Assembly: GCA_002269645.1 (NCBI GenBank)
Contig: NIVC01003826.1
Span: forward strand, 10,944-74,943
DNA: 64,000 nt
Origin: Macrostomum lignano
Lineage: Eukaryota
Direction of reading: 5' to 3'
The notes beneath the pieces were generated by a model. That model was given only the letters and a program-made list of their open reading frames with translations, was not told the origin of the DNA and did no database searches. Of this stretch, positions 40,998 to 64,000 are shown piece by piece. The position numbers and the translations under genes were made by a program. Positions within the stretch are counted from its first letter, which is position 1, and each line of letters opens with the position of its first letter.

Positions 40998-42256
40998 TGC
41001 CGTCTCCCTGCCATGCGATGCGGCTGATTGATAATAACTTCTTGAACAACAGGGCCGGATATTGCTTGACAGGATCCCGGCAACTACAGACTATGCAAAC
41101 GGGAATGTTAATGCTTTAAAAGCAGGCGGCGCGGGGGGGCGGTTAGTATGGGGGAAGAGAGGAGGAGCTAAAGAAACCAAATCTGCTTCCGTCTACAAAT
41201 GATGAGCGGCAGTGAAAACTCCCAGCGCTTTTGGCTCAGGCCAGGCAATCGATGAAGCCCTATTGGCGCGAGAGGAAGGATATTAAGGCGGATGGCTCGC
41301 GGATGCGACCATTCGCTCTTTAACCAATCGGGAAATCTAATAAAAAACAGAAGCGTATTTTCGGCTTCAAACAAGATTGTTATAAGACAGGGAAGCACAG
41401 CATACGATCATATACTTTCTACGTATTATTGCACTAGAATGAATTAGAAAACTACAAATGACTATACTTGTATAGTACATGTACAAACTTTTCTGTGCTA
41501 GCACAAAAAATTTGATTCTAACGCGACAATTAAGAAAGCAAGAAAACTTCACTGATAGATCCTTGAAATTAAATTAGCTTAAAATCTTTTGCTAGGCTTT
41601 CTAGTGAATTTTAAAGCAACGATTTAGGACAGTTTTTGAAAATTTCGAGATGAGGAAAAGTATAAGTTTCCAGACCTGACTCTGAAAATTAGAAGCTTTC
41701 CTCTTTCTGAAGAAAGAAAACAATGGCCATGAGGAGCAATTTGCTTCGGCACACGGCATCTAAAAATACCCAATAGCATGCAATATTCCAAGTCTGCATT
41801 GCCTGTCTTAAGATATATAATTAGCGATGCTGCTCTCTCTTTGCATCCGTAATTTCAGAGTTGAGAAGAAACGGCCTCACCCCTCCAGAAGGCATATTAA
41901 CTGCATGGATTTCACTTCGAAGAATCATTGCATTAAAGCGCCTGCACGCTTCTTGAAGAAAAACTCCGAGCTCAGCTTGGGTTGACGTGTGTACGCCTGA
42001 AATGAGCACACTGCTCATGCATGCCCGTCCCCCCACCCATAGCCATTTACACGCTAAGGCTTGCATTGTTCTACAGTCTTCAAGATATCAACGTGCAGCC
42101 TTTTGGTGTTGGGTGAAAATGAGATGGCAAGAGAGAGAAAGGTTTCGAGTGTGTACAAAATGCAAAATGATGCACACAAAAGACAAGCTATAAGATTCCC
42201 ATACAGTTTTATAATAATGATGCTCTGAAGGCTCTCTCATCTGAACTCCTTAGAAG

Positions 42257-43171
42257 ATGTCAATTTTATACTTGATTCAGTTTTCACCAGTCTTCTGGCT
42301 AACTTTTCAGCTTGTTATTAATGCAAGTAGGGCTCATTCAGACAGCTGCCAAGCCCTTTTGAGCACTCGGCAGCTTCTCAAACGTACCAGCCACCTGCAG
42401 CCGGTCAGCGAGGCTGAGTTCTACGCCAGATTCCGTTTGGGCGACCAACTCGGCGCCGGGTCTTCGGGCTTCGTTGTTTCCGCTGTTGACACAATGCCCC
42501 AGCGGGCGCACACCGGATCGCCGAAGTCATTAGCCGCGAAGTTCGTCCGCATTGAATCGCCAGCGGATCGACGTCGCCTACTAGCTGAGCTGACGGTCAA
42601 TATTCGGCTCGGTCTCCATCGTGACGCCATGCTGTTGAACGACAGCTGCGCCGCGTTGCTGACGCCGCATCGCGCCGGCGGTTCGCTGCGTCAGGCGTTG
42701 AACCGTCTGCGACGTCAGCGCAGTCTCGGCGCCGCTGTCGAAGAGGCCACCGCGTCGCGCTTCGCCTCGGCACTTCTTCGCCAACTTCGTCGGCTGCACT
42801 CGGCCGGGTTTGTCCACGCCGACGTCAAGCCGGAGAACATCGTCCTGGACGATCCGGACGACATCGCGTCGCTTACCCTGGTAGACTTCGGTTCAGTGAT
42901 TGCCGGCAGGGTGGCCACCGCCAGGACTGCAGGCTACGCGGCCCCGGAGCTGCCCGAGGTTGCCACGCCCGCTGCGGACATCTGGTCGGCTGGCCTGGTC
43001 ATCCGGGAGGTGCTGACGAGCGTCGGGCAGCATCGAAACAACTGGACGCCAGCGTCTCGTCTGGCCGCGGACTTCCTAGCCCAGCTGACGAAGACCCAAC
43101 CGGAGGACCGGCCGACCAGCGCTCAGGCTTTGAGGCATCCGTGGCTGTCGAATTGGCGGCGTCGACATTGA
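42257..43171 (+). CDS. Compact Ser/Thr protein kinase (CAMK/DAPK-like), 5' end uncertain
   Basis: LGAGSSGFV, AAKFV, LAEL, HADVKPEN, DFG, YAAPE, DIWSAG, RPTSAQALRHPWL. Confidence 0.88.
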   Translation: MSILYLIQFSPVFWLTFQLVINASRAHSDSCQALLSTRQLLKRTSHLQPVSEAEFYARFRLGDQLGAGSSGFVVSAVDTMPQRAHTGSPKSLAAKFVRIESPADRRRLLAELTVNIRLGLHRDAMLLNDSCAALLTPHRAGGSLRQALNRLRRQRSLGAAVEEATASRFASALLRQLRRLHSAGFVHADVKPENIVLDDPDDIASLTLVDFGSVIAGRVATARTAGYAAPELPEVATPAADIWSAGLVIREVLTSVGQHRNNWTPASRLAADFLAQLTKTQPEDRPTSAQALRHPWLSNWRRRH

Positions 43172-44174
43172 ATACCATGTGCAGTAGATTGCCAAGCTCC
43201 TATACGCATTTGTTGCACCTGACTCAGGTTTTACCGAAAAATATACATTACAGAAAATGGAGGCTTTCATTTTTCAGCCCACAAATTGTTATCGCTTTTG
43301 ATAAGGAGACAAACCCAATGTTCATATTTTGATGAGCCTCGTATAGCTCTGCTGATATTCGTAGAGCTTTTCATTTAAAAGTTTAGGATTCTTTGTTAAT
43401 TTTATGACATTACGTATACATATCCAGTGTCTTAAAAATGCGAATTTGACTTATTGATTTGATGAATTTATTTCATTATTTTTCTGCCACACATTTTGGT
43501 AACACAGTCAGCTAAGACTGATAAATGAATAAAAACAGTAAATGATGCTCATTGTTTCATTCATTTACTGTATGGGCATTGTGTTCACTTTCATTCACAT
43601 CTGTACGACCGATTTCTGCTATGAATGTATACGGTAGGTGTATACACAAGACTTACGGTAGGTCTTGCTTTAATTAAATTACCTAAGCCGGCCATATTTT
43701 GCACGATATATTGTTAAGTATGTTACTTTTCATGGTGCAGTGTGGTACAGTGTTTTGTTTGTTTAAATGCTCTCGTTTAGGCGCCAGTTTAAGCTTCCTT
43801 TTGCGCACACCTGTTGTTACGTCATCAAGGTAATACTGTCTTGAAGTAGGCAATTAATTAATTTGCGCCTCTCAGGCTTAATAAATAAATATATACAACC
43901 TTGCATCTGATATAGCATTGCCCGAAATATTTGTTCATGGCAATGACCTCCGGACAATGACCGGCCATTTTCTGGAGGTAAAAAAACAAGACTGGACAAC
44001 AATACCATAGGCGAAAAAAGTAACACGAAGCGTGAAATTCTTATATTTATTGAAGTCCAACAAAAAATGTTCCAACAATAACACTGCTTAGTCAATTGAG
44101 TGCAAGTCTAACCTATGGTCATGTTCTCATCACGACAGCAGGAGAAAGTCCAGAAAATACGACGGTTGAGTCCA

Positions 44175-44500
44175 TTACTCAAATTTGCAACCATTGAATG
44201 AACAGTTGTGGAAACTGTACCTGACCGACGGATTGTCATGACTGATGCCGGTGATCTGCACGGAAGACGACACAGGTACTGGCACCGGTGAACTCTCACG
44301 CAATGGAGTCGCAACAGCTTGTGAAGAACCATTCAAATCAAGTGCCATAGAAACAGCCTCACTGGTAGACTGCAGCGAGCGATCACGGCGCTTGGACAGG
44401 TAACGGCGAGTTGTCCTCTCAGAAACCTGACCGGTTATCGACATGATGTCAGCCAGGTTTTTGGCCGTTGCCTGGAGTTCTCTCTTCCAGTTAACCCCCC
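44175..44500 (-). pseudogene. Possible C-terminal remnant of a Crypton-like tyrosine recombinase
   Basis: RELQATAKNLADIMSITGQVSERTTRRYL resembles the HSLRAT...I...TGH.S...Y box II. It ends FHNCSFNGCKF. Upstream frames are closed. Confidence 0.35.
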
Positions 44501-45009
44501 ATTATATTAGTCCAAGACTTCCCATGCATAGAAATTTCGCATGATAATAGATTTTAAAACCTGTAGCTAAGTCCTTTTACTGCATCAGTATTCCTAGATG
44601 TATTAGGTATAGGCCTTCACTGTTAATTCCCGAAATTCCTAGAGGATGCGCCCTCTTACTTACAAAACCCTGGACTGCTTGTCCGCACAAGATTTACCCT
44701 TTACTAATCTATATTAAATCTCTAGTGTGTTAGCGCAAACTCGACAATTTCTGCGATAGTCAAAGATATCCAAGGAGGCCTAAAACACACTTTAGTTAGT
44801 CTGGAGTAGCAATTCTAGACTAGACTTCCCTAAGCTTTCACCTTCGTGTCATGATCGTATCAGTTGCAGTTAACGCGAAATATATGCGCCAATTGCCATG
44901 GCTATTTATAAACCAAGGGTTGGCATACTTTTTACCTCAAGGGCCAGACAGAGAACCAAGAGCATGACTGCGGGTCAGAGGAGGGGACAGAGGAGAGGGA
45001 AAAGAGATA

Positions 45010-45125
45010 GGAGAAAGGAGAGTCGAGAGAATAAAGAAGAGAGAAGAGGAGAGGAGAGGAGAGAGGAGAGAGGAGAGGAGAGGAGAGGAGAGAGGAGAAC
45101 AGAGAACAGAGGAGATTAGAGAGAA
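45010..45125. repeat. Polypurine (GAGAG/GAGGA)n microsatellite
   Basis: Seen directly in the sequence. Confidence 0.9.
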
Positions 45126-45159
45126 GGGAGCTGAGAAGACAAGAGGCGCAAACCTTAAA

Positions 45160-45243
45160 CGGGCCGGATTGCTATTGTGAAAATTTAAAGGACCCGAGGG
45201 CCGGATAGAGAGGCATTGCGGGCCGGATTTTGCCGACTCCTAT
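45160..45243. mobile_element. Probable end of a non-autonomous hAT-like element
   Basis: Three GGGCCGGAT subterminal motifs followed by TTTGCCGACTCCT, similar to ...TTTGCCGACCCCTG hAT-type termini. Confidence 0.4.
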
Positions 45244-45378
45244 TATAAACGATATACGTTTAATAGCTCCTTCTATTTGTTTAGCCAATATTTTTGTTTA
45301 ATCAGTGAGTTACAGCGATCGATTTCACAATAATTTGATGTCGCCTTGATTTCCTAGAAATATTCCTAGAACATTGAG

Positions 45379-48300
45379 AGTAGAAGGCATGAGGGGGCTT
45401 CTGGGACAAAATTTTTCACCTCCTCCATAATCCCATTAAATCCATCCATATTATCCCTGACAGAATCAGAAAAAAAGGGGGGTCGCACCTGCTCCAAAAA
45501 CCTCCTCCATAATCCCATTAAATCCATCCATATTATCCCTGACAGAATCAGAAAAAAAGGGGGTCGCACCTGCTCCAAAAACGTCCTCCATAATCCCATT
45601 AAATCCATCCATATTATCCCTGACAGAATCAGAAAAAAAGGGGGGTCGCACCTGCTCCAAAAACGTCCTCCATAATCCCATTAAATCCATCCATATTATC
45701 CCTGACAGAATCAGAAAAAAAGGGGGGTCGCACCTGCTCCAAAAACGTCCTCCATAATCCCATTAAATCCATCCATATTATCCCTGACAGAATCAGAAAA
45801 AAAGGGGGGTCGCACCTGCTCCAAAAACCTCCTCCATAATCCCATTAAATCCATCCATATTATCCCTGACAGAATCAGAAAAAAAGGGGGTCGCACCTGC
45901 TCCAAAAACGTCCTCCATAATCCCATTAAATCCATCCATATTATCCCTGACAGAATCAGAAAAAAAGGGGGGTCGCACCTGCTCCAAAAACCTCCTCCAT
46001 AATCCCATTAAATCCATCCATATTATCCCTGACAGAATCAGAAAAAAAGGGGGGTCGCACCTGCTCCAAAAACGTCCTCCATAATCCCATTAAATCCATC
46101 CATATTATCCCTGACAGAATCAGAAAAAAAGGGGGTCGCACCTGCTCCAAAAACCTCCTCCATAATCCCATTAAATCCATCCATATTATCCCTGACAGAA
46201 TCAGAAAAAAAGGGGGGTCGCACCTGCTCCAAAAACGTCCTCCATAATCCCATTAAATCCATCCATATTATCCCTGACAGAATCAGAAAAAAAGGGGGGT
46301 CGCACCTGCTCCAAAAACCTCCTCCATAATCCCATTAAATCCATCCATATTATCCCTGACAGAATCAGAAAAAAAGGGGGTCGCACCTGCTCCAAAAACG
46401 TCCTCCATAATCCCATTAAATCCATCCATATTATCCCTGACAGAATCAGAAAAAAAGGGGGGTCGCACCTGCTCCAAAAACGTCCTCCATAATCCCATTA
46501 AATCCATCCATATTATCCCTGACAGAATCAGAAAAAAAGGGGGGTCGCACCTGCTCCAAAAACCTCCTCCATAATCCCATTAAATCCATCCATATTATCC
46601 CTGACAGAATCAGAAAAAAAGGGGGGTCGCACCTGCTCCAAAAACGTCCTCCATAATCCCATTAAATCCATCCATATTATCCCTGACAGAATCAGAAAAA
46701 AAGGGGGGTCGCACCTGCTCCAAAAACCTCCTCCATAATCCCATTAAATCCATCCATATTATCCCTGACAGAATCAGAAAAAAGGGGGTCGCACCTGCTC
46801 CAAAAACGTCCTCCATAATCCCATTAAATCCATCCATATTATCCCTGACAGAATCAGAAAAAAAGGGGGTCGCACCTGCTCCAAAAACCTCCTCCATAAT
46901 CCCATTAAATCCATCCATATTATCCCTGACAGAATCAGAAAAAAAGGGGGGTCGCACCTGCTCCAAAAACCTCCTCCATAATCCCATTAAATCCATCCAT
47001 ATTATCCCTGACAGAATCAGAAAAAAAGGGGGGTCGCACCTGCTCCAAAAACGTCCTCCATAATCCCATTAAATCCATCCATATTATCCCTGACAGAATC
47101 AGAAAAAAAGGGGGGTCGCACCTGCTCCAAAAACCTCCTCCATAATCCCATTAAATCCATCCATATTATCCCTGACAGAATCAGAAAAAAAGGGGGGTCG
47201 CACCTGCTCCAAAAACCTCCTCCATAATCCCATTAAATCCATCCATATTATCCCTGACAGAATCAGAAAAAAAGGGGGTCGCACCTGCTCCAAAAACCTC
47301 CTCCATAATCCCATTAAATCCATCCATATTATCCCTGACAGAATCAGAAAAAAAGGGGGGGGTCGCACCTGCTCCAAAAACGTCCTCCATAATCCCATTA
47401 AATCCATCCATATTATCCCTGACAGAATCAGAAAAAAAGGGGGTCGCACCTGCTCCAAAAACGTCCTCCATAATCCCATTAAATCCATCCATATTATCCC
47501 TGACAGAATCAGAAAAAAAGGGGGTCGCACCTGCTCCAAAAACGTCCTCCATAATCCCATTAAATCCATCCATATTATCCCTGACAGAATCAGAAAAAAA
47601 GGGGGGTCGCACCTGCTCCAAAAACCTCCTCCATAATCCCATTAAATCCATCCATATTATCCCTGACAGAATCAGAAAAAAAGGGGGTCGCACCTGCTCC
47701 AAAAACCTCCTCCATAATCCCATTAAATCCATCCATATTATCCCTGACAGAATCAGAAAAAAAGGGGGTCGCACCTGCTCCAAAAACGTCCTCCATAATC
47801 CCATTAAATCCATCCATATTATCCCTGACAGAATCAGAAAAAAAGGGGGGTCGCACCTGCTCCAAAAACGTCCTCCATAATCCCATTAAATCCATCCATA
47901 TTATCCCTGACAGAATCAGAAAAAAAGGGGGGTCGCACCTGCTCCAAAAACGTCCTCCATAATCCCATTAAATCCATCCATATTATCCCTGACAGAATCA
48001 GAAAAAAAGGGGGTCGCACCTGCTCCAAAAACGTCCTCCATAATCCCATTAAATCCATCCATATTATCCCTGACAGAATCAGAAAAAAAGGGGGTCGCAC
48101 CTGCTCCAAAAACGTCCTCCATAATCCCATTAAATCCATCCATATTATCCCTGACAGAATCAGAAAAAAAGGGGGGTCGCACCTGCTCCAAAAACCTCCT
48201 CCATAATCCCATTAAATCCATCCATATTATCCCTGACAGAATCAGAAAAAAAGGGGGGTCGCACCTGCTCCAAAAACGTCCTCCATAATCCCATTAAATC

Positions 48301-48671
48301 CATCCATATTATCCCTGACAGAATCAGAAAAAAGGGGGGTCGCACCTGCTCCAAAAACGTCCTCCATAATCCCATTAAATCCATCCATATTATCCCTGAC
48401 AGAATCAGAAAAAAAGGGGGTCGCACCTGCTCCAAAAACGTCCTCCATAATCCCATTAAATCCATCCATATTATCCCTGACAGAATCAGAAAAAAAGGGG
48501 GTCGCACCTGCTCCAAAAACGTCCTCCATAATCCCATTAAATCCATCCATATTATCCCTGACAGAATCAGAAAAAAAGGGGGGTCGCACTCGCTCACAAA
48601 ACGTCCTCCATAATTCCATTAAATCCATCCATATTATCCCTGACAGAATCAGAGCATTATCCCTGACAGAA
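45379..48671 (+). repeat. Left TIR (~3.3 kb) made of about 40 copies of an ~82-bp unit
   Basis: Unit CCATAATCCCATTAAATCCATCCATATTATCCCTGACAGAATCAG-A7/8-G5/7-TCGCACCTGCTCCAAAAAC(G/C)TCCT. Confidence 0.97.
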
Positions 48672-48785
48672 AGAAAAGAAACAAAGACTCATTATATTTT
48701 ATTTAAGATTTAAGATTATATTTTATTTTCGTAAAGGTGTTTTATGTTTACTAACAAACGACGACTGCAGAATCTTAAATCGAAA

Positions 48786-49353
48786 CTAATTTATTTGATG
48801 ACTTTCAATCGCTCTCTCCATTGCCACATTTGTTTGCAATTGATCGATCGTCTTGGATGTTATCGCACGACACTCTGGACATGTTATACTATTTTCTGCC
48901 GCATTGTACAAAGTTTGGACACATCTCAAGCAGAACGAATGCGGGCAGTCCAGCTTCCTAGAAGGCGAAAGCCAGTTGTAGCACACTGGGCATTCGCATC
49001 CACGCGGGATGTTTTCCCTCTCGCGGCTCTCCAACTCCTTCTCTTTAATTTGAATCTTTTCCTTTAGGTCTTTAACCACCTTCAAATAGTAATAAATGAA
49101 ACAATGCCATGATTAATGATAAAAAAGTACCCAGAAATACACAGAAAACACAAATTTCGAGTCTTACCTGCACTGATTTAAAAAATTCCGTATTTCTCTG
49201 AAGTGAACTTTCATTCCACACTATATATATAGTCTCTAGCGGACAGGTTTTGAGGTCGCTATCAGCGTGCAACGCGGTTGTCACATTTTGTGCAGTCCGT
49301 AGTTTTGACTTAAGATTTTGCAGTCGCCGTTTATCAGTAGCAGTTGAGGGCAT
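48786..49353 (-). CDS. Spliced C3HC4 RING-finger protein (TRIM-like RING), 159 aa
   Basis: Exon 1 is 49353-49168 (ATG, 62 codons). The intron GTAAGA...TTTGAAG spans 49167-49080. Exon 2 (49079-48786) is in frame and contains CPVC...CPHSFCLRC...CPECR. Confidence 0.8.
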
Positions 49354-49620
49354 ATGTGGGGAGAAGCAGCCCGAGTGTTTCTGTGTTTGCTTAAATATAG
49401 CTAGCCGTAGAAAATTCTAGAAAATTCCAGACTGTACAATCTTGGAGTCAAGCAGGGAAAACAATCGATATAGCTCAGTGTACGATAGAGCATGAGGCGT
49501 GTGAATGTGAGGGGTGAGACTTCTCTATAGACAAAGCATAGGGTGAGGAGGCGAGGAGCATGAAGGAGAAGCATGGTGGAAAGAGAGATTGTAGCCGAAA
49601 CCAGTGTGCTCAAGACTGTA

Positions 49621-49748
49621 CACTTGTGTGGAGAAAAGCGAAGCGAAGGCCAAAAGGCCAGTTTGCGATAAAATTTGGCCTTACTCGAGGCCAAAATCCT
49701 TTGCGTTCTGGCCTTTTGGCCTTCGCTTCTTTTCGCTCCACACAAGTG
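49621..49748. other. 128-bp imperfect palindrome
   Basis: CACTTGTGTGGAGAAAAGCGAAGCGAAGGCCAAAAGGCCAG ... CTGGCCTTTTGGCCTTCGCTTCTTTTCGCTCCACACAAGTG, with an inner TTTGGCC/GGCCAAA hairpin. Confidence 0.9.
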
Positions 49749-49757
49749 GAGAGAGAA

Positions 49758-50207
49758 TCATTCTGCTCTCTCAACCCCCAGCTCTTTCAACAGTCTTCCT
49801 AGTTCTTGACTTGGCGCGTGCAATGCAAAACCCACCCCACCTTCGCCTTGAACCCCCAACCCCAGTTTTGTCTTACTAAAAATAACAGCTTTAACTAGCT
49901 TCCGAGCGATCGACTCACGAAATCCGCTTGAAGCCCCTATATTGTCTAGTCTCTTAAGCATTTCTTTGTCCCAACGATTCTTCTCCTCAGGAAAATCTCT
50001 ATATTTAACGTCATGCCACATGCAGACAGAGTCTAGCTCGTTCACAGGCTCATGCCCAGGATTTGGGTTGTTGTTTCCATCCAGCTGTATTTCAAGAGGA
50101 TTCAAAGGCCCGCAATATTTATAGCCGGGAAGTGTCCAGCCTTTGTTTGGATGAGGAAGCTTTTCTATCAGTCCATGTGAATCTATTTTACCACCAGAGC
50201 GCTGCAT
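49758..50207 (-). CDS. Parvovirus VP1u-type phospholipase A2 domain protein, 149 aa
   Basis: ATG at 50207; LPGYKYCGP Ca-binding loop and NELDSVCMWHDVKY catalytic HD motif. Confidence 0.88.
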   Translation of the reverse strand: MQRSGGKIDSHGLIEKLPHPNKGWTLPGYKYCGPLNPLEIQLDGNNNPNPGHEPVNELDSVCMWHDVKYRDFPEEKNRWDKEMLKRLDNIGASSGFRESIARKLVKAVIFSKTKLGLGVQGEGGVGFALHAPSQELGRLLKELGVERAE

Positions 50208-50237
50208 TATTTTATTTAAAATTTTCTTTTTAAATAA

Positions 50238-51275
50238 ATGACAGATCAGAAACTTAAAAAACTCTACTACAGCGACAAAGGATTCTTTGTAGGCAAAAAT
50301 GCTGTTAGTAAACTCATGGAGCTGAGTAAAGAGCCAAAAGCTACAGTAGAAAAATGGCTCTCTAAGCAGGCTGTCTTTCAAGTCTATTTCCCACCAGTAA
50401 AATTTGAAAGGCCCCATTTCAGTATTTATAAACCTAATGAAGCGCACCAAGCAGATCTTTTGTTTCTCCCCAACGACTCAGGCTACAAGTATGCTCTTAC
50501 AATTATTGACATTGCTTCCAGATATAAGGAAGCTCGCCCACTCAAGACGAAGAAGTCAGAGGTTGTTGCCAGCGCACTGCAAGATATTTATAAAAACTCT
50601 CCGCTCACATACCCCCAAATCTTTATGACCGACCCGGGTAAGGAATTCATGGGTGTAGTGAAATCCCTTATGGAAAAGAAAAACACAGAGATTCGCTATG
50701 GCAGAACAAACTTGCACAGAGACCAGGCTTTTGTGGAAAGATTCAATCTAACTCTAGCCAAGAGACTATTCACTAAGCAGACAGCGCAAGAACTCAAACT
50801 GAGTGCGGGGCAGTACTATACCAAGTGGACAGAAAGACTCCCCACTGTTATAGAGCAACTGAACAATGAAGTCACACGCATGACTGGATTGAAACCATCC
50901 CATGCAATTAAACAAGACACTGTCGAACTTAAGGCATCTCATAGAACAGACAACAACACGACAACCCCACACAACACGCACAACACAAAACACACCTCGA
51001 ACTACCCTAAGCTTCCAGGAGTTGAATCACCATACATACTGACAAACTCTGAGTTTCTACGCTTTTTATATCTACCTGGAGAGCTAGAGAAAGACACCAA
51101 AAGAAGAGCTACAGATCCATACTTCAGCCTTGATGTGCATAAAATAGACAGACATTTTACCTCCGACTCCGGTGACTATTACTTTTTATCTCAAGCCTTT
51201 AACCCTAAATCCCCCACGCGGTCATTCACTAGAGCTGAACTCCTAGTGATACCAGCTGACACAGAAATTAATTAA
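50238..51275 (+). CDS. int: Polinton retroviral-like (rve) integrase, 345 aa
   Basis: QADLLFL, TIIDIASRY, TDPGKEF, VERFNLTL; intact ORF. Confidence 0.95.
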   Translation: MTDQKLKKLYYSDKGFFVGKNAVSKLMELSKEPKATVEKWLSKQAVFQVYFPPVKFERPHFSIYKPNEAHQADLLFLPNDSGYKYALTIIDIASRYKEARPLKTKKSEVVASALQDIYKNSPLTYPQIFMTDPGKEFMGVVKSLMEKKNTEIRYGRTNLHRDQAFVERFNLTLAKRLFTKQTAQELKLSAGQYYTKWTERLPTVIEQLNNEVTRMTGLKPSHAIKQDTVELKASHRTDNNTTTPHNTHNTKHTSNYPKLPGVESPYILTNSEFLRFLYLPGELEKDTKRRATDPYFSLDVHKIDRHFTSDSGDYYFLSQAFNPKSPTRSFTRAELLVIPADTEIN

Positions 51276-51291
51276 AATATTAAAATAAAAA

Positions 51292-51747
51292 ATGACAAAG
51301 ATTGAAACTAGAACCATCAATAAACTCAATAAAATCATTGAATCAAAGAAACCAGGTATTATATCAATTAAAGGTGTCAAAGTAAAAATCGATCCCACGC
51401 AGCAAATAGTTCAGTGTAATGAACAAAGACACAGCATCACAGATGAAAAGTCAGGAGGAATCCTACCATTAGCAGCTCTTATTCCGATCATTGCAGGCGC
51501 TGTAAGTGCCGCAGGTGGTGTAGCTGGAGGTGTAGCAACTGCTGTTAAAGCTGGGAATGATAGAGCCCACCAGCTGGAATTGCAAAAGATTGCAAGAGAC
51601 AAAGGTATAACAATTAAGGCAGGAGATGGTTGCCCTGATTTTGATGATTGTGATGATTGTGAGCATGAAAATTCTGTAAGCAAGTCTGACATTGTCAAAG
51701 CCATCATGACACTGCACAATGCTGGGTTTACAATAATGCGGATGTGA
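51292..51747 (+). CDS. Small protein with an adenovirus pX-like hydrophobic Gly/Ala segment, 151 aa
   Basis: SGGILPLAALIPIIAGAVSAAGGVAGGVA, similar to adenoviral GGFLPALIPIIAAAIGA; basic N-terminus. Confidence 0.7.
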   Translation: MTKIETRTINKLNKIIESKKPGIISIKGVKVKIDPTQQIVQCNEQRHSITDEKSGGILPLAALIPIIAGAVSAAGGVAGGVATAVKAGNDRAHQLELQKIARDKGITIKAGDGCPDFDDCDDCEHENSVSKSDIVKAIMTLHNAGFTIMRM

Positions 51748-51869
51748 TGAGGTTTAAAACCCCACTTTATCCAGCTTCATAAACCTAATACTACTTATAG
51801 GATGTAGAAACAGTTCAACTTTTCTATCAGGGTGGTCACCCTCAAAATTTTTTTATATTTTCGAGAAAA

Positions 51870-54800
51870 ATGCCAAAAGCTAATCCAGCAAGAGATTTAG
51901 TCAACAAATATTTTTCAAAAGGCGTCTCATTTCAAGACAAAAGTAATTCACTAAGAGAAGCATGCAAACAAAAGTTCAACACCGACCCTGGTCACCTGGG
52001 AAGCTATGAAAAACAGTTGGAAATCATCAATCAATTAGAATCAAACCAGTATGCGCCTATAAAAAATTCTGCAAAGGAACACCAAGAGAGGAGTCGCAAC
52101 TTAGTTAACAAATATGAAACTCTCACTGGTGAAAAAGCAAAGTACCCACAAAATAAGCAGGAACAAGAGAAATTAGAGCAATTAATCCATTTAAAAGAGT
52201 CGGAGCTTGCCACTGAAGAGATTAATTTTGCACAGACGAAGTTTACAGAACATTACATAGAGTACACAATCCCAATTAACGGCACCAACGGTACCACCGC
52301 AAATATCTACGACTATAAAGACAGCATCCAATCAGTTGTTGATCACACACTCAAAACACGCAAGACCTTTAAACTACAGATATCATTCAAGATTGCGTTT
52401 TATATGCCTGCAAAACCCACTGAGCATCTCGAGTATTACATGACAACAAAGGCAAAGCCATTCACCCCAACAGACACACTGGATCCTTTCCTTCAAGATG
52501 TCAATAAGAAAATTGAAGCGTTTACATCCAGAGGTTCCGGATGGGTCGTGGGAGGGATTCAAAGAGCGACTGTCAGGGTCATGAAATATGACCCACTTAA
52601 AGCCTCCTCTTATATAGAGCTCCCGCATAAGCTAGCCGGTAAAAAAGCTTGCATAAATGTTAAAAATAAAGACAATTGCTGTGCTCTATGGGCAGTTCTT
52701 TCTGCACTTTTTAGTGTCCCTCACCACCCCGAAAGAACCTCAAATTATCAAAATTATTTTAACTACTATCTCATTGAATGCGAAAAGAAGGGAATCAGGT
52801 TTGACAAAGGAGGCTTGGCATCTCTCAATCCCAAAGCTAGAAGAAGTGTTTAATAACAAAATTAGAATCACAGTCTTTGAGTGGAGTGAGAAAACTGAGA
52901 AAGTTCAACCGGTCAGATGTAGCAAAGACGTTTTAGATCCGAGGGGAAAAGGCGGACTGAAGTGGATCTTCTAGTGATTGGTAATTTACTAGAGGAGGCT
53001 CACTATGTTTGGATTAAAGATCTTTCAAGACTCATACACAAGCAGTTGAATAATCATCACGAGGCTGTTGCCATCTGCCGCTTGTGCCTTAAGCATTACA
53101 GTGGACCTGAACGCTTTGAAAAACTAGCAGAGCATGAATTATCATGCGAGGATCACCCGACAAACTGCTCTCTTCCTTCAGCTGAAGAGAAGTATCTCCG
53201 GTTTAAGAACTATCACAAGATGGAGAAGCTCCCATTTGTTGTATATGCTGATTTCGAATGCTCAATCGTGCCAGAAACTCAAAAACAAACTCAAACTCAA
53301 AAACATGTCCCCAATTCAGTAGCATATGCTTTATTATACAAAAGACTTGTTGAGTATAATTATTTCTTTGGAGAGCAGTGTGTGGAGCAGTTTATTGCCA
53401 GAATGTTAGAGTTGCAAAAATTGATTAGCACCCTTCAACCTGTTCCAATAATGATGACTGAGGAGGATGAAAGCAATTTCCTATCAGCAACTCATTGCCA
53501 CATCTGCAGGAAACATTTAACTTGCACTAATATTAAAAACCCCACCGTTAGGGACCACTGCCACTATACTGGGAAATTTAGAGGTGCAGCGCATAACACC
53601 TGTAATCTAAAGCTAAAATCGAACATTCATGATCTAACGATATTTTGTCACAACGCAAAGAACTATGACATGCATTTAATAGTTGAAAAAATCGGCATGA
53701 TTCCAGACATACACCTTGATTGCATCGCAGAGAACAAGGAGAAGTTTAAGTGTGTTGATATTAAACAGGATAATTCGGGTAAAGGTAAAATAAGACTGAA
53801 GGATTCATATCAATTTCTAGCTGCCAGTCTAGACGAACTAAGCAAGAATCTAAAAGATGAACAATGTACATATACAAAGATGTTTGCAAGTAAAATTAAC
53901 AACACTGATGAATCATTTAAACTCCTGAGAACCAAAGGCTTCTACCCCTATGAAAATATTACTGGGTATCACGTATTTGAAGAAGGTTTACCACCACAGG
54001 AGAAGTTCTTTTCAAAGCTAACAGACTCTGGAATCTCTGACAAAGACTATGAGCACGCGAAGCATGTCTATAATTACTTTAATTGTCAAAACTTCTTCCA
54101 GTATCACCTGCTTTACCTCTACACAGATGTGTTTCTGCTGGCCGATGTGTTTGAAACCTTCAGATCACCTGGTACACAGCATACGGCCTCGATCCAGCAC
54201 ATTATGTGTCTCTGCCTGCCACTAGCTGGGAATCTTTGCTTAAAATGAAATGGGATCAAGATCCAGATTGGTACATTGAACTTCTTACAGACATTGACAT
54301 GTACAATTTTGTCGAATCGTCAAAGCGAGGGGGAATCTCAATTTGCACCCATAGATATGCAAAAGCAAACAATCCCTACATTGAATCTTACAATAAGGAG
54401 CAGCCCTCAAACTACATTACTTACTTGGACGCTAATAATCTCTACGGGTGGGCGATGAGTCAAGATCTTCCAGTTAGAGATTTTCGATGGTTACCCTCAT
54501 CAGAATTCAAACGGGACTTTTCATTGGCTGCCATTTATGAGGTTGATGTTTACATTCCACCAGAGCTTCACGACTATTTCTCTGACTTTCCACCCTTCCC
54601 AGAGAACATCAAGTGCCCGAAAATAATCGAAACTCCCAATGATAATAATGGAACTTGGCGCTTGTCAGGAACAGAAAAAGAACATACAGAGAAACTAACA
54701 CAGAATCTAAACAACAAGACACGTTACAAAATCCATTACAAACTGCTTCAGTATTTTATCTCACTTGGTTGCAGGGTCACCAAAGTTCACCGGGCTCTTA

Positions 54801-55680
54801 CATTTACAGAGGAAGCGTGGATGAAACCCTACATTGATAAGAACACCCAGTTTAGGACCAAAGCAACCAACGACTTTGACAAGAACCTCTTTAAGTTGGC
54901 CAACAACTCTGTCTATGGCAAGACTCTTGAGAATGAGCGGAAAAGAACAAACCTGAAACTTGTTACCTCATCAGAGCCTGATGTTATTCAGGCAAATTGT
55001 CAAAGCCAACATTCAAAGAACTCCATATCTTTAATAGCTACTTAGGTGTGATCATATTTTACAAAACCAAGGTGACGCTGCGCAAGCCGATCTATACAGG
55101 TGTCACTGTTCTCGACGAATCAAAACGTCTGATGTACCAGTTCTTCTATGGCATGAAGCAGCAGTACAAGGATAAAATGAAACTCTTGTACACTGACACA
55201 GACAGTTTTATTATGGACATTCAAACAGAAGACATTTATCAGGACATGCTGCAGCAAAAAGATTTGTTTGACTTGTCTGAGTATGATGAATCTTTCAGGA
55301 CACAGAATGGCGATCAAGTGTTTGACGCCACTAACAAGAAAGTGATTGGGAAAATGAAGGACGAGATTGCTGGTGACATAATCACTGAATTCATTGGGTT
55401 GAGAGCAAAGTCCTATTTTATAAAATGTGAGTCGTCAGACCCAATCAAAAAATCAAAGGGAATTCCGAAACGTGTAGTTAGGAAGGAAATTAATGAAGCT
55501 GAATACAGAGACGCCTTGAATTGCAACAAAAAGACATCACATGAGTTCTCAAAGCTACAATCCAAAAACCATATTATTCACACAATTCGCAAAAGAAGAT
55601 TGGACTGTCAGGTGCAGATAACAAGAGATTCATTTTTGATGACAATATCAACAGTCTACCGTTCGGCATTGGAGGTTAGG
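51870..55680 (+). pseudogene. polB: Protein-primed DNA polymerase B, split by about 5 single-base frameshifts
   Basis: YADFE, FCHNAKNYD, YLYTDVFLLADVF, YGLDPAHY (hidden frame), YLDANNLYG, KLANNSVYGK, YTDTDS, KKSKGI, and C-terminal KIGLSGADNKRFIFDD...LPFG (hidden frame). Breaks at about 52820, 52960, 54165, 54990 and 55590. Confidence 0.95.
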
Positions 55681-55738
55681 TTTAGGAGGTGGATATTGGG
55701 TTTAGGTTTGAGAGAAAGTTTAATAAACCTCATAAAAA

Positions 55739-56140
55739 ATGACAACAAATAACTTTCTTGAAGATTTGGCTAACGAACTGGAAATCCCAAACTTTAGAGG
55801 AATATTTATGAGGGACACTCTGCCTGATTTTCCTCTAAGAAAAGAATGCGGCATCATGAACTTTGACACCACCGATAAGCCAGGATCTCATTGGGTTTGC
55901 TGGGTGATTGATCCCAATCGCAAGCACAAGTGTTATTACTTCGATAGCTATGGGACGGCAGTACCAGAAGAGCTAAGAAATTATATGAAGGGAAAAAATA
56001 ATAAAAAAATTTATCGCTCAGACTTTATTCTCCAAGGTCTTAGCAGTGATATTTGCGGTGAGCTGTGCATGACTGTTTTGTATGCAATGACCAAAACACG
56101 AAAGACCTACAAGGAAATTATTCTTGGCTGTGTTTCATAG
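55739..56140 (+). CDS. Adenain-like cysteine (maturation) protease, 133 aa
   Basis: GSHWVCW, YYFDSYG, QGLSSDICGELC (His/Asp/Gln/Cys catalytic set). Confidence 0.93.
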   Translation: MTTNNFLEDLANELEIPNFRGIFMRDTLPDFPLRKECGIMNFDTTDKPGSHWVCWVIDPNRKHKCYYFDSYGTAVPEELRNYMKGKNNKKIYRSDFILQGLSSDICGELCMTVLYAMTKTRKTYKEIILGCVS

Positions 56141-56813: not shown

Positions 56814-56921
56814 TTTTTAGGGAATTTTTTTAAAAAAATCGGCAACTAGTTGGTGGTGGCTAGATTTGTTTTACGGTTGATTGCTTCGTCTGCAGTGACG
56901 GCAACAGGTCTCTGAATCTGC

Positions 56922-57653: not shown

Positions 57654-57669
57654 CTTTTAATAGCAAATT

Positions 57670-58470
57670 TTAAATTACAGTTCTTTTTTCTTTGCTGATA
57701 ATCACAAACTGGTAAGGCTGATTCCACTTGTCATAGCAAAGATTAACGAATTCCTCTTGTGAAATCTTTCTGCTTGAGTTTTTTGTTGGATTTATGAAAT
57801 AGGCAGGCGCAATGACCTCATTGTAAAATCTTTTTAACCTGTCCTGTGGAATGGTTGGAAACAGGAGAATCAGATTGCAGTTCCCACGAATTGTTTTGTT
57901 CGGGAGCTCGAACCAGTTCTGTGCAATGTAAATTACATTACAATTGTTATGTCGCCCTCTTGTAAAATAGTTTTCTATCTGCTTCTGTGGGCCTGTCATA
58001 CAATCATCAAAGACGATCAAATGCTTTCTCCCCTTTTCTAGCTCATCTGGTTGGGGTAGAAGTTTGGTCTTTGGATCAGCCTGTGGATCTCCATAGGTGA
58101 ACACTTTAATGTTCTGCCATTTTTCATTGTCTTTGAGGTGCTTTGCATATTCGGCAGCTACAATTTCAGGGTTACTGGGAAGGCTCATTTGGTTATTAAA
58201 ACATGCAATAATGTCCTCTTTGTTCAGCTTGTTTTGAAGCCCTGCAATCAGCATTCTATACTCATCTTGATACAGTGTGGGAGAGTAGATGTGCAGAGTG
58301 TCATAGTCGATAAAGCCAGGTCTAAGAAGCATGTTAAAGACTCTGAATGTTTTACCTGAACCTGATGAACCAACAACAATGCATCTGAAGTGACTCGGGA
58401 TTGACTCATGATGAGAAAACTTAATCTGATTACGTGTCCAGTGAGGATTGAAGTCGTTTGAAAAGTCCAT
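57670..58470 (-). CDS. A32/FtsK-like DNA packaging ATPase, 266 aa
   Basis: Walker A IVVGSSGSGKT, Walker B LIVFDD, and RGRHNNCNVIYIAQ. Confidence 0.95.
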   Translation of the reverse strand: MDFSNDFNPHWTRNQIKFSHHESIPSHFRCIVVGSSGSGKTFRVFNMLLRPGFIDYDTLHIYSPTLYQDEYRMLIAGLQNKLNKEDIIACFNNQMSLPSNPEIVAAEYAKHLKDNEKWQNIKVFTYGDPQADPKTKLLPQPDELEKGRKHLIVFDDCMTGPQKQIENYFTRGRHNNCNVIYIAQNWFELPNKTIRGNCNLILLFPTIPQDRLKRFYNEVIAPAYFINPTKNSSRKISQEEFVNLCYDKWNQPYQFVIISKEKRTVI

Positions 58471-58508: not shown

Positions 58509-58677
58509 TAGATGTGTCATTTCGGGACTTAGATGTGTCATTTTGGGACTTAGATGTGTCATTTTGGGACTTGGATGTGTTATTTTGGGACTTAGATGTG
58601 TCATTTTGGGACTTAGATGTGTCATTTTGGGACTTAAATGTGTCATTTTGGTACTTAATTGTGTCATTTTGGGACTA
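58509..58677. repeat. 21-bp tandem repeat, about 8 copies, immediately upstream of the ATPase
   Basis: Unit GATGTGTCATTTTGGGACTTA. Confidence 0.95.
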
Positions 58678-59117: not shown

Positions 59118-59119
59118 CT

Positions 59120-60354: not shown

Positions 60355-61636
60355 ATGAACGACCCACTGACACCAGTTTTCTACAAAATTAACAAGCCTA
60401 TTTTGAGTGATGATAGCACAATCAAAGCGACACAGTTAAGAGTTCCGAGTCACGAGAATCAGAATGAAACTAATTTGGTCCAGGTCAAACACTGACATTT
60501 ACATACAATGGATGTTCGTCTCTGGTTAGTGTGCACAGTCTTAAGAGCGGCTTCCATATGACATTTCAATTCAAGACAAAGGTGGTGCGGATGCGGCTCG
60601 TGCTAACGTTGACAAGCATGATGCGGATGTGGCTCTGATCAGTAACTTTTGGGCGTACATGTTCAAGGAGTTTAGTGTATCGAATGGGAGCACTGAGTTG
60701 GAGCGAATCGCCAACTTTGGAATTGTCTATGACGCTCATTGTTTGATCGAGAATCCTGATTTTATTCAGTTGGGAAGTGGTGCGGGTTTTATTGCAGAGA
60801 AAAAGAAGGAGATATCAATGACAGTGGCTATAAAAAAGGAAGAAGAGATACAACTATGCATTGCAAGGTGCTGATGATGCTGCTAAAAACCCGCTGTATC
60901 GGTCTGTTGATGTATTTGTACCATTGAGATTCATGAGTGGATTCTGTAATACATTTAATCGACTGACTAGTAACTTTAGCTACACATTTAGGATGACTAG
61001 AGATGATCGCAGTAGAGTGTTGTGGACTGGGGCGGACCACACAAGGATGGAGGTGAAGCTAACCGGAATCGAGCTGTATTTGGAAGTCATTGAGCCAAAG
61101 ACTGCACTAAAAGCAGACTATCTTAAGGCAATAGAGAAGGACATTGATGTTGCATACACAGCCTACATGTGTCGAGATGAGCGAAACGAAACTAGAACAA
61201 ACATCTGCATTAAAGAGGGATCATGCAGCAATCCAAGGTATATTATTATTAACATGAGAAACCCAAATAGCATTATACGCTACATGCATGGAGACGTGCG
61301 GTCCATTCAGCATGAAATCAGTGATAATCTTTACCCTGCACTGCCACAAAATGGAGATTTCAGTCAGAACAAGATTAGCAAATTTTATAGCGAGTTGGTC
61401 GACTTGGCTGTGAAAGAGAACAATGGAATTGCTATCACTGCTCTTCAATATGGAACTCTATATCCAATGTTTGGCGCTGATGTGTCTGCCAGACAAATGC
61501 CTACTGATAACAGCCCTGTGAATATCGTGACAACATTGAGAGGACTGTCGCAACACCCGTGGACTTGTACATTATCTATGCATTTGAGAGGAAGGTGAAG
61601 CTTAACATGATCAACAATTCATCCAGTAAAGTTTAA
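60355..61636 (+). pseudogene. Major capsid protein (double jelly-roll), frameshifted
   Basis: ATG at 60355 (ILSDDSTIK). Polinton MCP-like segments ALISNFWAYMF..NGSTELE, VPLRFMSGFC, NPRYIII, YPALPQNGDF, FGADVSARQ. Probable stop at 61636. Confidence 0.85.
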
Positions 61637-61659: not shown

Positions 61660-62520
61660 ATGGAAGCTATAGCCGAAAGACTAAACAATATTATTTCGCA
61701 CTCCAAGGAGAGCATTCCTATTACAATAACTGGGCGGATTAATGACTCAAACGGGATATTTGTTCAAAAATTAGAGCAGGCGATTAGCCTGGATCCAGGT
61801 GCTAATTACCATGTCTATCTTAACGACTTCACTGGTTGGTCAAACGTTCCCAATGTGACGGCAGCAAATAATAAGTTTTATTACAAATGGAAAGGTGCAG
61901 CAGCAGAACCTGTGGTATTCCTGTGAGCACGCAAAGTGTGGATACCTACAATTACTTTCTAGAAACGTCTTTACTAAAAGAGGCCATTTTGAGACACCTG
62001 ATATGAGTAAGCCAGAGAAGAAACTGTTCCCTGTTAAACTAACCTATGATCTCACTGTAATGAGAGTGGTCATGCAAGTTACAAAGATGCGGAGGTTGAG
62101 TTTAAAGATGACACTTGGTATAGGGAATTGGGATTCGTGAAGAAAGTTTATAAGGCAGAATCCACAGCGCGGACTGTCACTCAAGCATCGGGGGCCGTTA
62201 GCATGGCCCGGGAAAGTGTACGCGGTTTGTTCTTAGCACCCAATATAGCAGACATTGTAAAGGGTTTGAATATTCTAATCAGAACTAATCTCAGTCTTGA
62301 TTGGGTATTTAAGGGAAAGCGAACTAATATTTTGTACAACATCTCCAACTCTGTAGCTGGAGGACAGATGGTGGTAGAGAAACCAAATCCAGTGAAAAGA
62401 GTTGTATTGAGTAATAAGGAGATTCACGAGATTGTGCTTCAGTTTGAGACTGAAGATGGGATGGGCGTTGATTTTAATGGGGAAGAGTTTGTATTGACGT
62501 TAATCATTGAGAGAATGTGA
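61660..62520 (+). pseudogene. Minor capsid/penton protein (single jelly-roll), frameshifted
   Basis: ISLDP..YHVYLNDF..SNVPNV...NNKFYY; TNILYNI...GGQMVVEKP; GVDFNGEEFVLTLII. Confidence 0.82.
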
Positions 62521-62764: not shown

Positions 62765-62970
62765 TTTTATTGAAAATTTAATTTTTTTCAAAGGGTAAGG
62801 ACCCTGCGCTGATGATTTAAAGTCTTAGGGATCTGGTTTCACGTTGCGGATTGAATGTGGGGAGAAGAATGCAGATTATTTTCTGATTGTTTCGAAGATG
62901 CTATGGGTGGATGTCAGTGGATTATGTCAGTGTCAGTGAGCATAACAGGTGTCCTACTGTTATGCTCTGA

Positions 62971-63975
62971 TTCTGTCAGGGATAATGCTCTGATTCTGTC
63001 AGGGATAATATGGATGGATTTAATGGAATTATGGAGGACGTTTTGTGAGCGAGTGCGACCCCCTTTTTTTCTGATTCTGTCAGGGATAATATGGATGGAT
63101 TTAATGGGATTATGGAGGACGTTTTTGGAGCAGGTGCGACCCCCTTTTTTTCTGATTCTGTCAGGGATAATATGGATGGATTTAATGGGATTATGGAGGA
63201 CGTTTTTGGAGCAGGTGCGCGACCCCCTTTTTTTCTGATTCTGTCAGGGATAATATGGATGGATTTAATGGGATTATGGAGGAGGTTTTGGAGCAGGTGC
63301 GACCCCCCTTTTTTTCTGATTCTGTCAGGGATAATATGGATGGATTTAATGGGATTATGGAGGACGTTTTTGGAGCAGGTGCGACCCCCTTTTTTTCTGA
63401 TTTGTCAGGGATAATATGGATGGATTTAATGGGATTATGGAGGAGGTTTTTGGAGCAGGTGCGACCCCTTTTTTTTCTGATTCTGTCAGGGATAATATAT
63501 GGATGGATTTAATGGGATTATGGAGGAGGTTTTTGGAGCAGGTGCGACCCCCCTTTTTTTCTGATTCTGTCAGGGATAAATGGATGGATTTAATGGGATT
63601 ATGGAGGACGTTTTTGGAGGCAGCGTGCGACCCCCCTTTTTTTTCTGATTCTGTCAGGGATAATATGGATGGATTTAATGGGATTATGGAGGAGGTTTTT
63701 GGAGCAGGTGCGACCCCCCTTTTTTTCTGATTCTGTCAGGGATAATATGGATGGATTTAATGGGATTATGGAGGACGTTTTTGGAGCAGGTGCGACCCCC
63801 CTTTTTTTCTGATTCTGTCAGGGATAATATGGATGGATTTAATGGATTATGGAGGACGTTTTTGGAGCAGGTGCGACCCCCTTTTTTCTGATTCTGTCAG
63901 GGATAATATGGATGGATTTAATGGATTATGGAGGAGGTGAAAAATTTTGTCCAGAAGCCCGCCATGCCTTCTACT
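62971..63975 (-). repeat. Right TIR (~1.0 kb) with about 12 copies of the 82-bp unit
   Basis: Reverse complement of the left TIR, including the same variant innermost unit (…GCACTCGCTCACAAAACG…AATTCC). Confidence 0.96.
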
Positions 63976-64000
63976 ATTGAGTCGTTTTTCGGGAAGATCG

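What the first reader, a model, noticed from the sequence alone, without database searches (positions are those of the whole stretch)
45379..48671. Giant, asymmetric terminal inverted repeats built from an 82-bp tandem array (about 40 vs 12 units)
Seen: both ends share a ~40-bp unique tip, then the same 82-bp unit, then an identical variant innermost unit and a partial duplication. Only the unit count differs (3.3 kb vs 1.0 kb). Units are near-identical apart from one G/C dimorphism and homopolymer length, and each contains a small CTGA-CAGAA-TCAG hairpin. Known: Polinton TIRs are usually up to about 1 kb, and tandem arrays inside ITRs are a poxvirus trait. Inference: an expandable, telomere-like origin or protein-binding array, homogenised between ends during protein-primed replication.
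Basis: partly seen in the sequence, partly recalled or inferred. Interest (0 to 1): 0.8.

Follow-up and report, generated by a model that had tools for sequence, protein, structure and literature searches.

The report
Minisatellite-built ends of a flatworm Polinton
A virus-like jumping element inserted in a flatworm genome has its two ends built from the same 82-base tandem repeat, with 39 copies at one end and 11 at the other; this design is known from other transposons, and the unequal length most likely reflects ordinary repeat slippage, although an assembly error is not excluded.

Summary
Positions 45379-48671 are the left terminal inverted repeat (TIR) of a complete 18,597-bp Polinton/Maverick (adintovirus-like) insertion, 45379-63975, with a 6-bp target-site duplication. 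The host is probably the flatworm Macrostomum. Each arm is a 42-44-bp tip, then 81-82-bp units (39 left, 11 right), then an identical 66-bp stub. The unit occurs nowhere else in the window.

Corrections: the G/C variant order is not shared between arms. The right arm carries 11 indels against 1 substitution, which looks like sequencing error. The hairpin is chance-grade. Nothing is telomere-like.

Best reading (0.6): a foldback-type TIR whose internal minisatellite was copied to both ends by the element, then changed copy number independently by slippage or unequal exchange. The extra units are probably neutral. An assembly error in the length difference remains possible (0.2), though single-collapse and single-stutter models fit no better than shuffles.

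Precedents exist in Galileo, Tetris and the polinton-like virus Gezel-14T. My searches found none for an animal Polinton. Verdict: new variant of a known kind, interest 0.38.

The parts
45373..45378 (.). Left target-site duplication (6 bp)
   Evidence: Identical 6-mer directly outside both tips
45379..45422 (+). Left unique tip, 44 bp, starting AGTAGA; presumed pPolB/integrase-recognised end (inferred)
   Evidence: weak likeness to the second half of the unit, p=0.04
45423..48605 (+). Left array, 39 units of 80-84 bp; among the first 38, 15 are C-type and 23 G-type; unit 39 (48524-48605) is the innermost variant
48606..48671 (+). Left 66-bp stub: truncated variant unit plus partial re-duplication of the 23-bp dyad-bearing sub-motif
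48789..49112 (-). RING-finger (C3HC4) accessory reading frame, its 3' end facing the left TIR; lies between 40-bp inverted repeats at 48749-48788 and 49300-49339
   Evidence: Pfam zf-C3HC4 E 1.6e-6
49616..49753 (.). Long imperfect palindrome (66-nt arms), function unknown
   Evidence: -54.2 kcal/mol, z -11.7
49758..50207 (-). Parvovirus-type phospholipase A2 domain gene
   Evidence: PF08398 E 7e-14
50238..51275 (+). Retroviral-like integrase, unbroken (345 aa)
   Evidence: PF00665; 10 of 10 homologs tested align full-length in one frame
51292..51747 (+). Adenovirus protein X-like core protein
   Evidence: PF05829 E 4.6e-7
51870..55752 (+). Protein-primed DNA polymerase B with an endonuclease-VII-like finger; broken by frame changes near 52.83-52.92 kb (two), 54.17 kb, 54.98 kb and, more weakly supported, 55.6 kb
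   Evidence: PF03175 and PF02945; tblastn tiling with 77 homologs
55739..56140 (+). Adenain-like protease
   Evidence: PF00770 E 1.1e-4
57670..58470 (-). A32-like packaging ATPase
   Evidence: PF04665 E 3.6e-6
58509..58676 (.). Internal 21-bp minisatellite, 8 copies, unrelated to the TIR unit
60355..61630 (+). Double-jelly-roll major capsid gene in five pieces (four frame changes, no stop in the matching frames)
   Evidence: PF21738 E 3.7e-4, below the curated cut-off; 67%-identical relative P0245 passes the cut-off; tiling
61660..62520 (+). Probable minor capsid (penton) gene in three open stretches; its 3' end faces the right TIR
   Evidence: Position; open stretches; atlas lead to Sputnik V18/19 at 0.92
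62938..62967 (.). 11-bp perfect hairpin just inside the right TIR, overlapping a further copy of the 23-bp sub-motif; absent on the left
   Evidence: z -3.6
62971..63036 (-). Right 66-bp stub
   Evidence: Identical to the left stub
63037..63933 (-). Right array, 11 units; among the first 10, 4 are C-type and 6 G-type; 11 indel events and 1 substitution against best-matching left units
63934..63975 (-). Right unique tip, 42 bp
63976..63981 (.). Right target-site duplication (6 bp)

Best explanation
The interval is the left TIR of a young, full-length Polinton whose TIRs have a foldback-type build: a short unique tip that the polymerase/terminal protein and the integrase act on, followed by a variable-number tandem repeat. 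Step 1 (shown): one insertion, two inverted arms, same edges. Step 2 (inferred): the unit arose at the element's end, perhaps by duplication of terminal sequence, and was copied to both arms when one end was templated on the other. Step 3 (inferred from the patterns): afterwards each array gained or lost units through many small slippage or unequal-exchange events, in the host chromosome or during out-of-register pairing of the arms. These events are far more frequent than point mutation, so units stay identical while number and order drift apart. Step 4 (inferred, untested): a few units may serve as auxiliary binding sites; the 28 extra left units are probably neutral.
For: 6-bp TSD and inverted tips. 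Complete Polinton gene set. Stub identical and innermost variant shared, with both G and C types in both arms. Unit absent from the rest of the window (best hit 11 nt, E 0.88). Order unrelated between arms: one-deletion model leaves 3 of 10 mismatches and one-stutter model 14 of 38, matched by 52% and 49% of shuffles. No private substitution in 38 left units (3,101 bp), against 23 substitutions between the two LTRs of the neighbouring Gypsy element. The host DNA expands arrays to the same scale: 38% of 1-23,683 is tandem repeat, including 54 bp x 47. Galileo shows different repeat numbers in the two TIRs of one copy (PMC3573991) and Tetris shows expansion of TIR repeats (PMC4079207).
Against: No long duplicated block of variants is visible in the left array (longest repeated block 3-4 units, p 0.89-0.996), whereas a recent expansion by a few large unequal exchanges should leave one; the same test found such a block in 1 of 5 host arrays. 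So many small steps or conversion must be assumed. Regional structure in the G/C order is only marginal and post hoc (p 0.04-0.06). The right arm is error-rich, so its length may rest on few reads. Only one copy of this family was seen, so typical copy number is unknown.
Confidence: 0.6

Rival explanations
1. The array-built TIR is real, but the 39-versus-11 difference is an assembly product: the right arm collapsed, the left was over-extended, or reads from several genomic copies were merged.
For: Right arm plus tip has 13 indels to 2 substitutions against 1 to 23 for the LTR pair (Fisher p=1.7e-7). About nine frame changes in pPolB and major capsid with no isolated nonsense codon also suggest consensus error. 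M. lignano is described as a hidden polyploid that is hard to assemble (PMC10468722, search listing and passage). TIRs caused assembly problems for mavirus-like elements (PMC8547959).
Against: A single collapse of a mirror-identical arm, or a single stutter of the short arm, fits no better than shuffles. The left array has no period of 8-12 units. Both arrays are bounded by unique sequence and a matching TSD. Indel-type errors point to long reads, which can span 1-3.3 kb (general knowledge).
Confidence: 0.2
2. One reading: the array is a functional, expandable origin, enhancer or protein-binding platform that changes and is homogenised during protein-primed replication, with copy number under selection.
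For: Near-perfect unit identity. The 23-bp sub-motif holding the CTGA-N5-TCAG dyad is re-duplicated at the inner edge of both arms and once more on the right. A second Polinton in the window has three iterated motifs near its end. Galileo TIR repeats hold secondary transposase sites (passages).
Against: A 3.5-fold difference is tolerated in one insertion that has an intact TSD. Variant order is not shared. The dyad is chance-grade. The flanking RING and minor-capsid genes point their 3' ends at the arrays, and the 12 interior starts examined have their own A/T-rich upstream tracts. One small unassigned ORF (62525-62764, minus) does read away from the right TIR.
Confidence: 0.12
3. The unit is a host minisatellite that the element captured at one end and then mirrored.
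For: The host is rich in minisatellites of many unit sizes. Only about 45 kb of host DNA could be searched.
Against: No copy outside the TIRs in the window. The tip weakly resembles the unit (p=0.04) and runs straight into it. No exact match in GTDB genomes, phage records or Rfam; these say little about an animal host.
Confidence: 0.08

Closest known systems
Animal Polintons/Mavericks (adintoviruses, Alpha/Mayetiola-type virion module)
   Same: Size, 6-bp TSD, AG-starting ends, integrase, pPolB, ATPase, protease, double-jelly-roll capsid, PLA2 and protein X domains.
   Different: TIR up to 3,293 bp against 46-1,447 bp in 134 intact vertebrate elements (PMC8097293). TIR almost wholly tandem array. 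End motif AGTAGA rather than (AGT)2 or (AG)3. PLA2 and protein X are separate ORFs on opposite strands instead of the fused PLA2X (PMC8502044).
Foldback-type TIR transposons Galileo and Tetris (Drosophila)
   Same: Long TIRs with internal tandem repeats of variable number, unequal between the two ends of a copy, able to expand to kb arrays (PMC3573991, PMC4079207; passages).
   Different: These are cut-and-paste elements (Galileo has a P-type transposase) with 210-220-bp units and usually 0-4 copies per TIR. Here the element is a self-synthesising virus-like element with 82-bp units and 11-39 copies. It works like their TIRs but is not a member.
Polinton-like viruses and virophages with long TIRs (Gezel-14T/PgVV, cryptophyte PLVs, mavirus-like EMALEs)
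   Same: Gezel-14T TIRs are described as near-identical units with a dinucleotide variation (figure legend only) and a >300-bp direct repeat. TIRs reach 4,435-4,449 bp in C. borealis PLVs (Table S3 first row) and 2.3 kb in EMALEs.
   Different: Protist hosts. I did not see evidence that those TIRs are long homogeneous minisatellite arrays; the Gezel figure and its supplements were not viewable.
Poxvirus ITR tandem arrays and Tetrahymena Tlr1 inverted repeats (both recalled, not checked here)
   Same: Tandem arrays inside inverted terminal repeats with unstable copy number.
   Different: Poxvirus ends are covalently closed hairpins kept mirror-symmetric, with no TSD or integrase. Tlr1 repeats are recalled as 19-mers; the one paper I opened (PMC5182062) gave no detail.

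Membership tests
Polinton/Maverick | Protein-primed DNA polymerase B | tested here: met
   PF03175; 2,163 longer homologs at E<=1e-20; gene is frame-broken in this sequence
Polinton/Maverick | Retroviral-like (rve) integrase | tested here: met
   PF00665 E 2e-8; unbroken
Polinton/Maverick | TIRs with 5-8-bp (typically 6-bp) TSD | tested here: met
   6 of 6 identical bases
Polinton/Maverick | Length 13-25 kb | tested here: met
   18,597 bp; range from PMC10748475
Polinton/Maverick | Packaging ATPase, adenain protease, major and minor capsid genes | tested here: met
   the minor capsid rests on position plus an atlas lead only
Polinton/Maverick | End motif (AGT)2, (AG)3 or (AC)3A as in vertebrate elements | tested here: inconclusive
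   Ends read AGTAGA at both tips, 5 of 6 matching (AGT)2
Alpha adintovirus virion module | Fused PLA2X gene | tested here: not met
   PLA2 and protein X domains are in separate ORFs on opposite strands; not filed as a member
Alpha adintovirus virion module | Phylogenetic placement of pPolB and capsid with named Alpha references | not tested
   No tree built
Foldback-type TIR architecture | Long TIRs with a unique outer tip and an internal tandem array of variable, unequal copy number | tested here: met
Foldback transposons (Galileo/FB/Tetris) as families | P- or Mutator-type cut-and-paste transposase | tested here: not met
   None among the ORFs scanned; rve integrase and pPolB instead
Foldback-type TIR architecture | Repeats carry binding sites for the element's enzyme | not testable with these tools
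   Needs a binding assay
Telomere-like terminal array | Short G-rich repeats at the very end, G4-forming | tested here: not met
   0 TTAGGG, 0 three-tier G4 motifs, array lies behind a unique tip
Poxvirus-type ITR | Mirror-identical arrays at both ends | tested here: not met
   39 against 11 units, unrelated order
Host satellite | Copies elsewhere in the genome independent of the element | tested here: inconclusive
   None in the window; the host genome could not be searched

The most novel reading that the evidence does not exclude
This Polinton lineage uses a variable-number array as a tunable end module. Out-of-register pairing of the two arms during the element's own replication both homogenises unit sequence and reshuffles unit number, copy number sets origin or integration efficiency, and abandoned arrays seed the many unrelated minisatellites seen in this flatworm's DNA. 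Such ends would be systematically missed, because inverted-repeat finders report only the shorter arm (the self-BLAST here gave a 999-bp match) and short reads cannot span them.
Probability: 0.12. Interest if true: 0.72.

Novelty: new variant of a known kind. Interest (0 to 1): 0.38.

Why it matters
How Polinton ends work has been proposed but, to my knowledge, not shown in animals. An element whose arms carry a built-in two-state barcode (G or C in each unit) makes that testable: comparing unit order between the two ends of many insertions would show whether ends are re-templated at each replication cycle or drift only after integration. It also extends the foldback TIR design to self-synthesising elements and warns that Polinton TIR lengths may be underestimated. 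If the extra units are neutral host-driven slippage, as I think most likely, the result is a structural curiosity in a minisatellite-prone genome.

Tried and rejected
Hairpin as a structural feature: rejected; the unit folds no better than shuffles (144 and 194 of 200 shuffles fold as well). Structured RNA: 0 Rfam matches in the window. Coding array: the 100-210-aa ORFs over the arrays are repeat read-through and were not pursued. Shared or periodic variant order: not found. Linkage between G-run length and the G/C site: not significant (p 0.31 and 0.73); whether G5/G6 is a real dimorphism or homopolymer noise is unresolved. Bacterial, archaeal or phage origin of the unit: 0 hits. Bacterial promoter scan of 62700-63100: 1 site against 0.8 expected and not meaningful for an animal host. 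PDB sequence search with the capsid relative: 0 hits. Exact look-up: 1 of 10 window proteins is in the collection, and none of the 5 Polinton proteins tried. Integrase search: 605 hits, best 69%, none of the 120 listed names an organism, so no sister element with readable ends was obtained. The 54-bp x 47 array at 6932-9442 as a TIR of the second Polinton: rejected, since that element's terminus lies at 5253. Likeness of unit 6-mers to homeodomain or E-box motifs, of the dyad geometry to the adenovirus NFI site, and of two units (163-164 bp) to a nucleosome length: all recalled, untested and expected by chance in 82 bp; not used. Viral and metagenome contig collections were not searched, so free or sister copies there stay unchecked. 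No structure or complex predictions were run.

Full report
1. Observation. The interval 45379-48671 is one arm of an inverted repeat whose partner is 62971-63975. Reading inward, each arm has a unique tip (44 bp left, 42 bp right), a run of 81-82-bp units (39 left, 11 right), and a 66-bp stub made of a truncated variant unit and a partial re-duplication of a 23-bp sub-motif. The stub is identical in both arms, and the innermost full unit is the same variant apart from G-run length. The same 6 bp (ATTGAG) lie directly outside both tips, so the two arms belong to one insertion of 18,597 bp. A 33-nt piece of the unit matches 47 times in the window and never in 100 shuffles. Outside the two arms the best match to the unit is 11 nt (E 0.88).

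2. On the left, 0 of 38 ordinary units differ except at the G/C site and the A- and G-runs; on the right 8 of 10 do. Against their best-matching left unit, the right units show 11 indel events and 1 substitution in 897 bp, and the tip 2 and 1. The two LTRs of a neighbouring Gypsy element show 1 gap and 23 substitutions (Fisher p=1.7e-7). I infer that the right-arm differences are mostly consensus errors. The CTGA-N5-TCAG dyad is present 40 and 12 times, but the unit folds no better than shuffled sequence, and 65% of shuffled units have some 4-bp dyad. There is no telomeric hexamer and no three-tier G4 motif.

3. What the element is. Between the arms lie 14,299 bp with a RING finger, a parvovirus-type PLA2, an unbroken rve integrase, adenovirus protein X, pPolB with an endonuclease-VII-like finger, an adenain protease, an A32 ATPase, a double-jelly-roll major capsid and a probable minor capsid. 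That is a Polinton/Maverick of the adintovirus-like kind; named pPolB relatives come from corals, insects and molluscs at 35-43% identity. PLA2 and protein X are separate here, unlike the fused PLA2X described in PMC8502044 (passages). pPolB has four clear frame changes and one weaker one, and the major capsid has four. The only stop flagged in a conserved context (4 of 77 queries) lies in the short out-of-frame stretch near 52.86 kb. If these nine breaks were neutral decay, 2 to 9 nonsense codons would be expected for substitution:indel ratios of 5 to 23 (P of none 0.13 to 0.0001), so they too are probably at least partly sequence error. This estimate leans on a single LTR pair. The three named hits of a neighbouring EF-hand gene are all Macrostomum lignano (63-72%), so the host is probably that flatworm or a congener.

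4. How the arrays relate. Both arms contain G-type and C-type units (23:15 left, 6:4 right), but in unrelated order: 4 of 10 in-register matches from the tip, 7 of 10 from the inner edge, longest common run 7 (p=0.58). Deriving the right arm from the left by one deletion leaves 3 of 10 mismatches; deriving the left from the right by one stutter leaves 14 of 38; 52% and 49% of shuffles do as well. This argues against the two simplest assembly errors and also against wholesale copying of one end onto the other in the last replication cycle. It does not exclude a consensus merged from several copies. The left array has no long duplicated block (p 0.89-0.996), although the test found one in 1 of 5 host arrays. 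That counts against a few large jumps and requires many small steps or conversion. Alternation in the outer half and G-type enrichment near the inner edge are marginal and post hoc (p 0.04-0.06).

5. Context. The host DNA in this window is itself prone to arrays: 38% of 1-23,683 is tandem repeat, with one 54-bp x 47 array of 2.5 kb; 33,872-45,378, next to the element, is only 2% tandem. The element also holds an unrelated 21-bp x 8 array. A second, unrelated Polinton-like element begins the window (pPolB-like frame at 1-1752, terminus with the canonical (AGT)2 motif at 5253). Its end region has three spaced copies of a motif but no tandem array. So iterated subterminal motifs occur in both elements, while a giant array occurs in one of two.

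6. Mechanism. Shown: one insertion, shared edges, shared dimorphism, unshared order and number, no private substitution in 3,101 bp of left units. Inferred: the unit arose at the element's end (the tip resembles the second half of the unit weakly, p=0.04) and was mirrored when one end was templated on the other, as the proposed stem-loop replication intermediate would allow (mentioned in PMC2646287, passage; details recalled). After that the arrays behaved as VNTRs, changing by slippage or unequal exchange much faster than by point mutation. Function of the units is untested. The adjacent RING and minor-capsid genes point their 3' ends toward the arrays, and the 12 interior starts examined have their own A/T-rich tracts, so a promoter role is not needed. 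I give this 0.6, assembly error in the length difference 0.2, a selected expandable origin or binding platform 0.12, and host-satellite capture 0.08.

7. Comparison with what is known. Vertebrate Maverick TIRs are 46-1,447 bp (PMC8097293, section 7 and passages) and Polinton TIRs are given as 100-1,500 bp (PMC10748475, passages); the right arm is inside that range and the left is more than twice the top. Protist relatives reach further: 2.3 kb in EMALEs (PMC8547959, passages) and 4.4 kb in C. borealis PLVs (PMC12220804, passages and the first row of Table S3). Gezel-14T TIRs are described as near-identical units with a dinucleotide variation (10.1101/2022.07.28.501842, passages and a figure legend; figure and supplements not seen, and they may bear on novelty) and contain a >300-bp direct repeat (PMC11296320, passages). 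Among cut-and-paste elements, Galileo has unequal tandem-repeat numbers in the two TIRs of a copy (PMC3573991, passages) and Tetris TIR repeats expand into arrays of up to 66 copies (PMC4079207, passages). A review of transposon-derived tandem repeats has no occurrence of 'Maverick' or 'Polinton' (PMC9659126, passages). PMC6431247, PMC5182062 and PMC10468722 were seen as passages only and gave nothing on array-built Polinton TIRs. Poxvirus ITR arrays, Tlr1 19-mers and adenovirus origin details are recalled, not checked.

8. Novelty. Six searches aimed at tandem arrays in Polinton ends and three aimed at Macrostomum surfaced no description of a multi-kilobase minisatellite TIR in an animal Polinton; I opened 14 papers, not every listed hit. 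The library lacks most subscription papers, and I did not read the founding Polinton and Maverick papers or Repbase reports, so absence is weak. The element is a member of the Polinton family, and its ends work like foldback TIRs without belonging to those families. Verdict: new variant of a known kind, interest 0.38. The G/C barcode makes the end-copying question testable once more insertions are compared.

Noticed in passing
window 1-5253: End of a second, unrelated Polinton-like element: unbroken 584-codon pPolB N-terminal frame at 1-1752 (minus), a 15-bp array at 1797-2446 upstream of it, an orphan 303-aa ORF at 3233-4144 (minus), three spaced copies of a subterminal motif (4708, 5120, 5199) and an (AGT)2-type terminus at 5253.
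   Followed up: partly
window 49616-49753: Long imperfect palindrome (-54 kcal/mol, z -11.7) directly downstream of the PLA2 gene; could be a small foldback insertion, a terminator or an internal origin.
   Followed up: partly
window 48749-49339: RING-finger accessory frame enclosed by 40-bp inverted repeats (85% complementary), with what look like splice signals on the minus strand near 49.08 and 49.17 kb; possibly a captured cassette.
   Followed up: partly
window 62938-62967: Perfect 11-bp hairpin just inside the right TIR only, overlapping an extra copy of the 23-bp sub-motif.
   Followed up: partly
window 62525-62764 (minus): 79-aa ORF with the element's typical A-rich start context, reading inward from the right TIR; no Pfam match.
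   Followed up: partly
window 50206-50237: PLA2 and integrase diverge from a very short A/T-only spacer that contains an 11-bp inverted repeat; likely a bidirectional promoter.
   Followed up: no
window 23681-33891: Gypsy-type LTR retrotransposon with 1.1-kb LTRs 97.8% identical, a 4-bp TSD, gag, pol in two ORFs and an extra 236-aa ORF at 31567-32277.
   Followed up: partly
window 5576-22952: More than a dozen unrelated minisatellite arrays (units 12-81 bp), some apparently interrupting host genes such as a DnaJ gene near 21-22 kb and transporter-like exons near 14.5-16.2 kb.
   Followed up: partly
window 40506-40997 and 42257-43171: Single-ORF EF-hand and protein-kinase genes upstream of the insertion; the EF-hand gene gave the host assignment.
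   Followed up: partly
window 56118-57653 and 58719-60322 (minus): Several unassigned Polinton ORFs, including a 231-aa protein with a hydrophobic hairpin and Q/P-rich pieces that overlap in different frames; no Pfam match above cut-off.
   Followed up: no
window 48672-63975: Apparent error density rises from left to right: no break seen in the integrase, about five in pPolB, four in the major capsid, 13 indels in the right arm, which hints at falling read depth toward the window's right end.
   Followed up: partly
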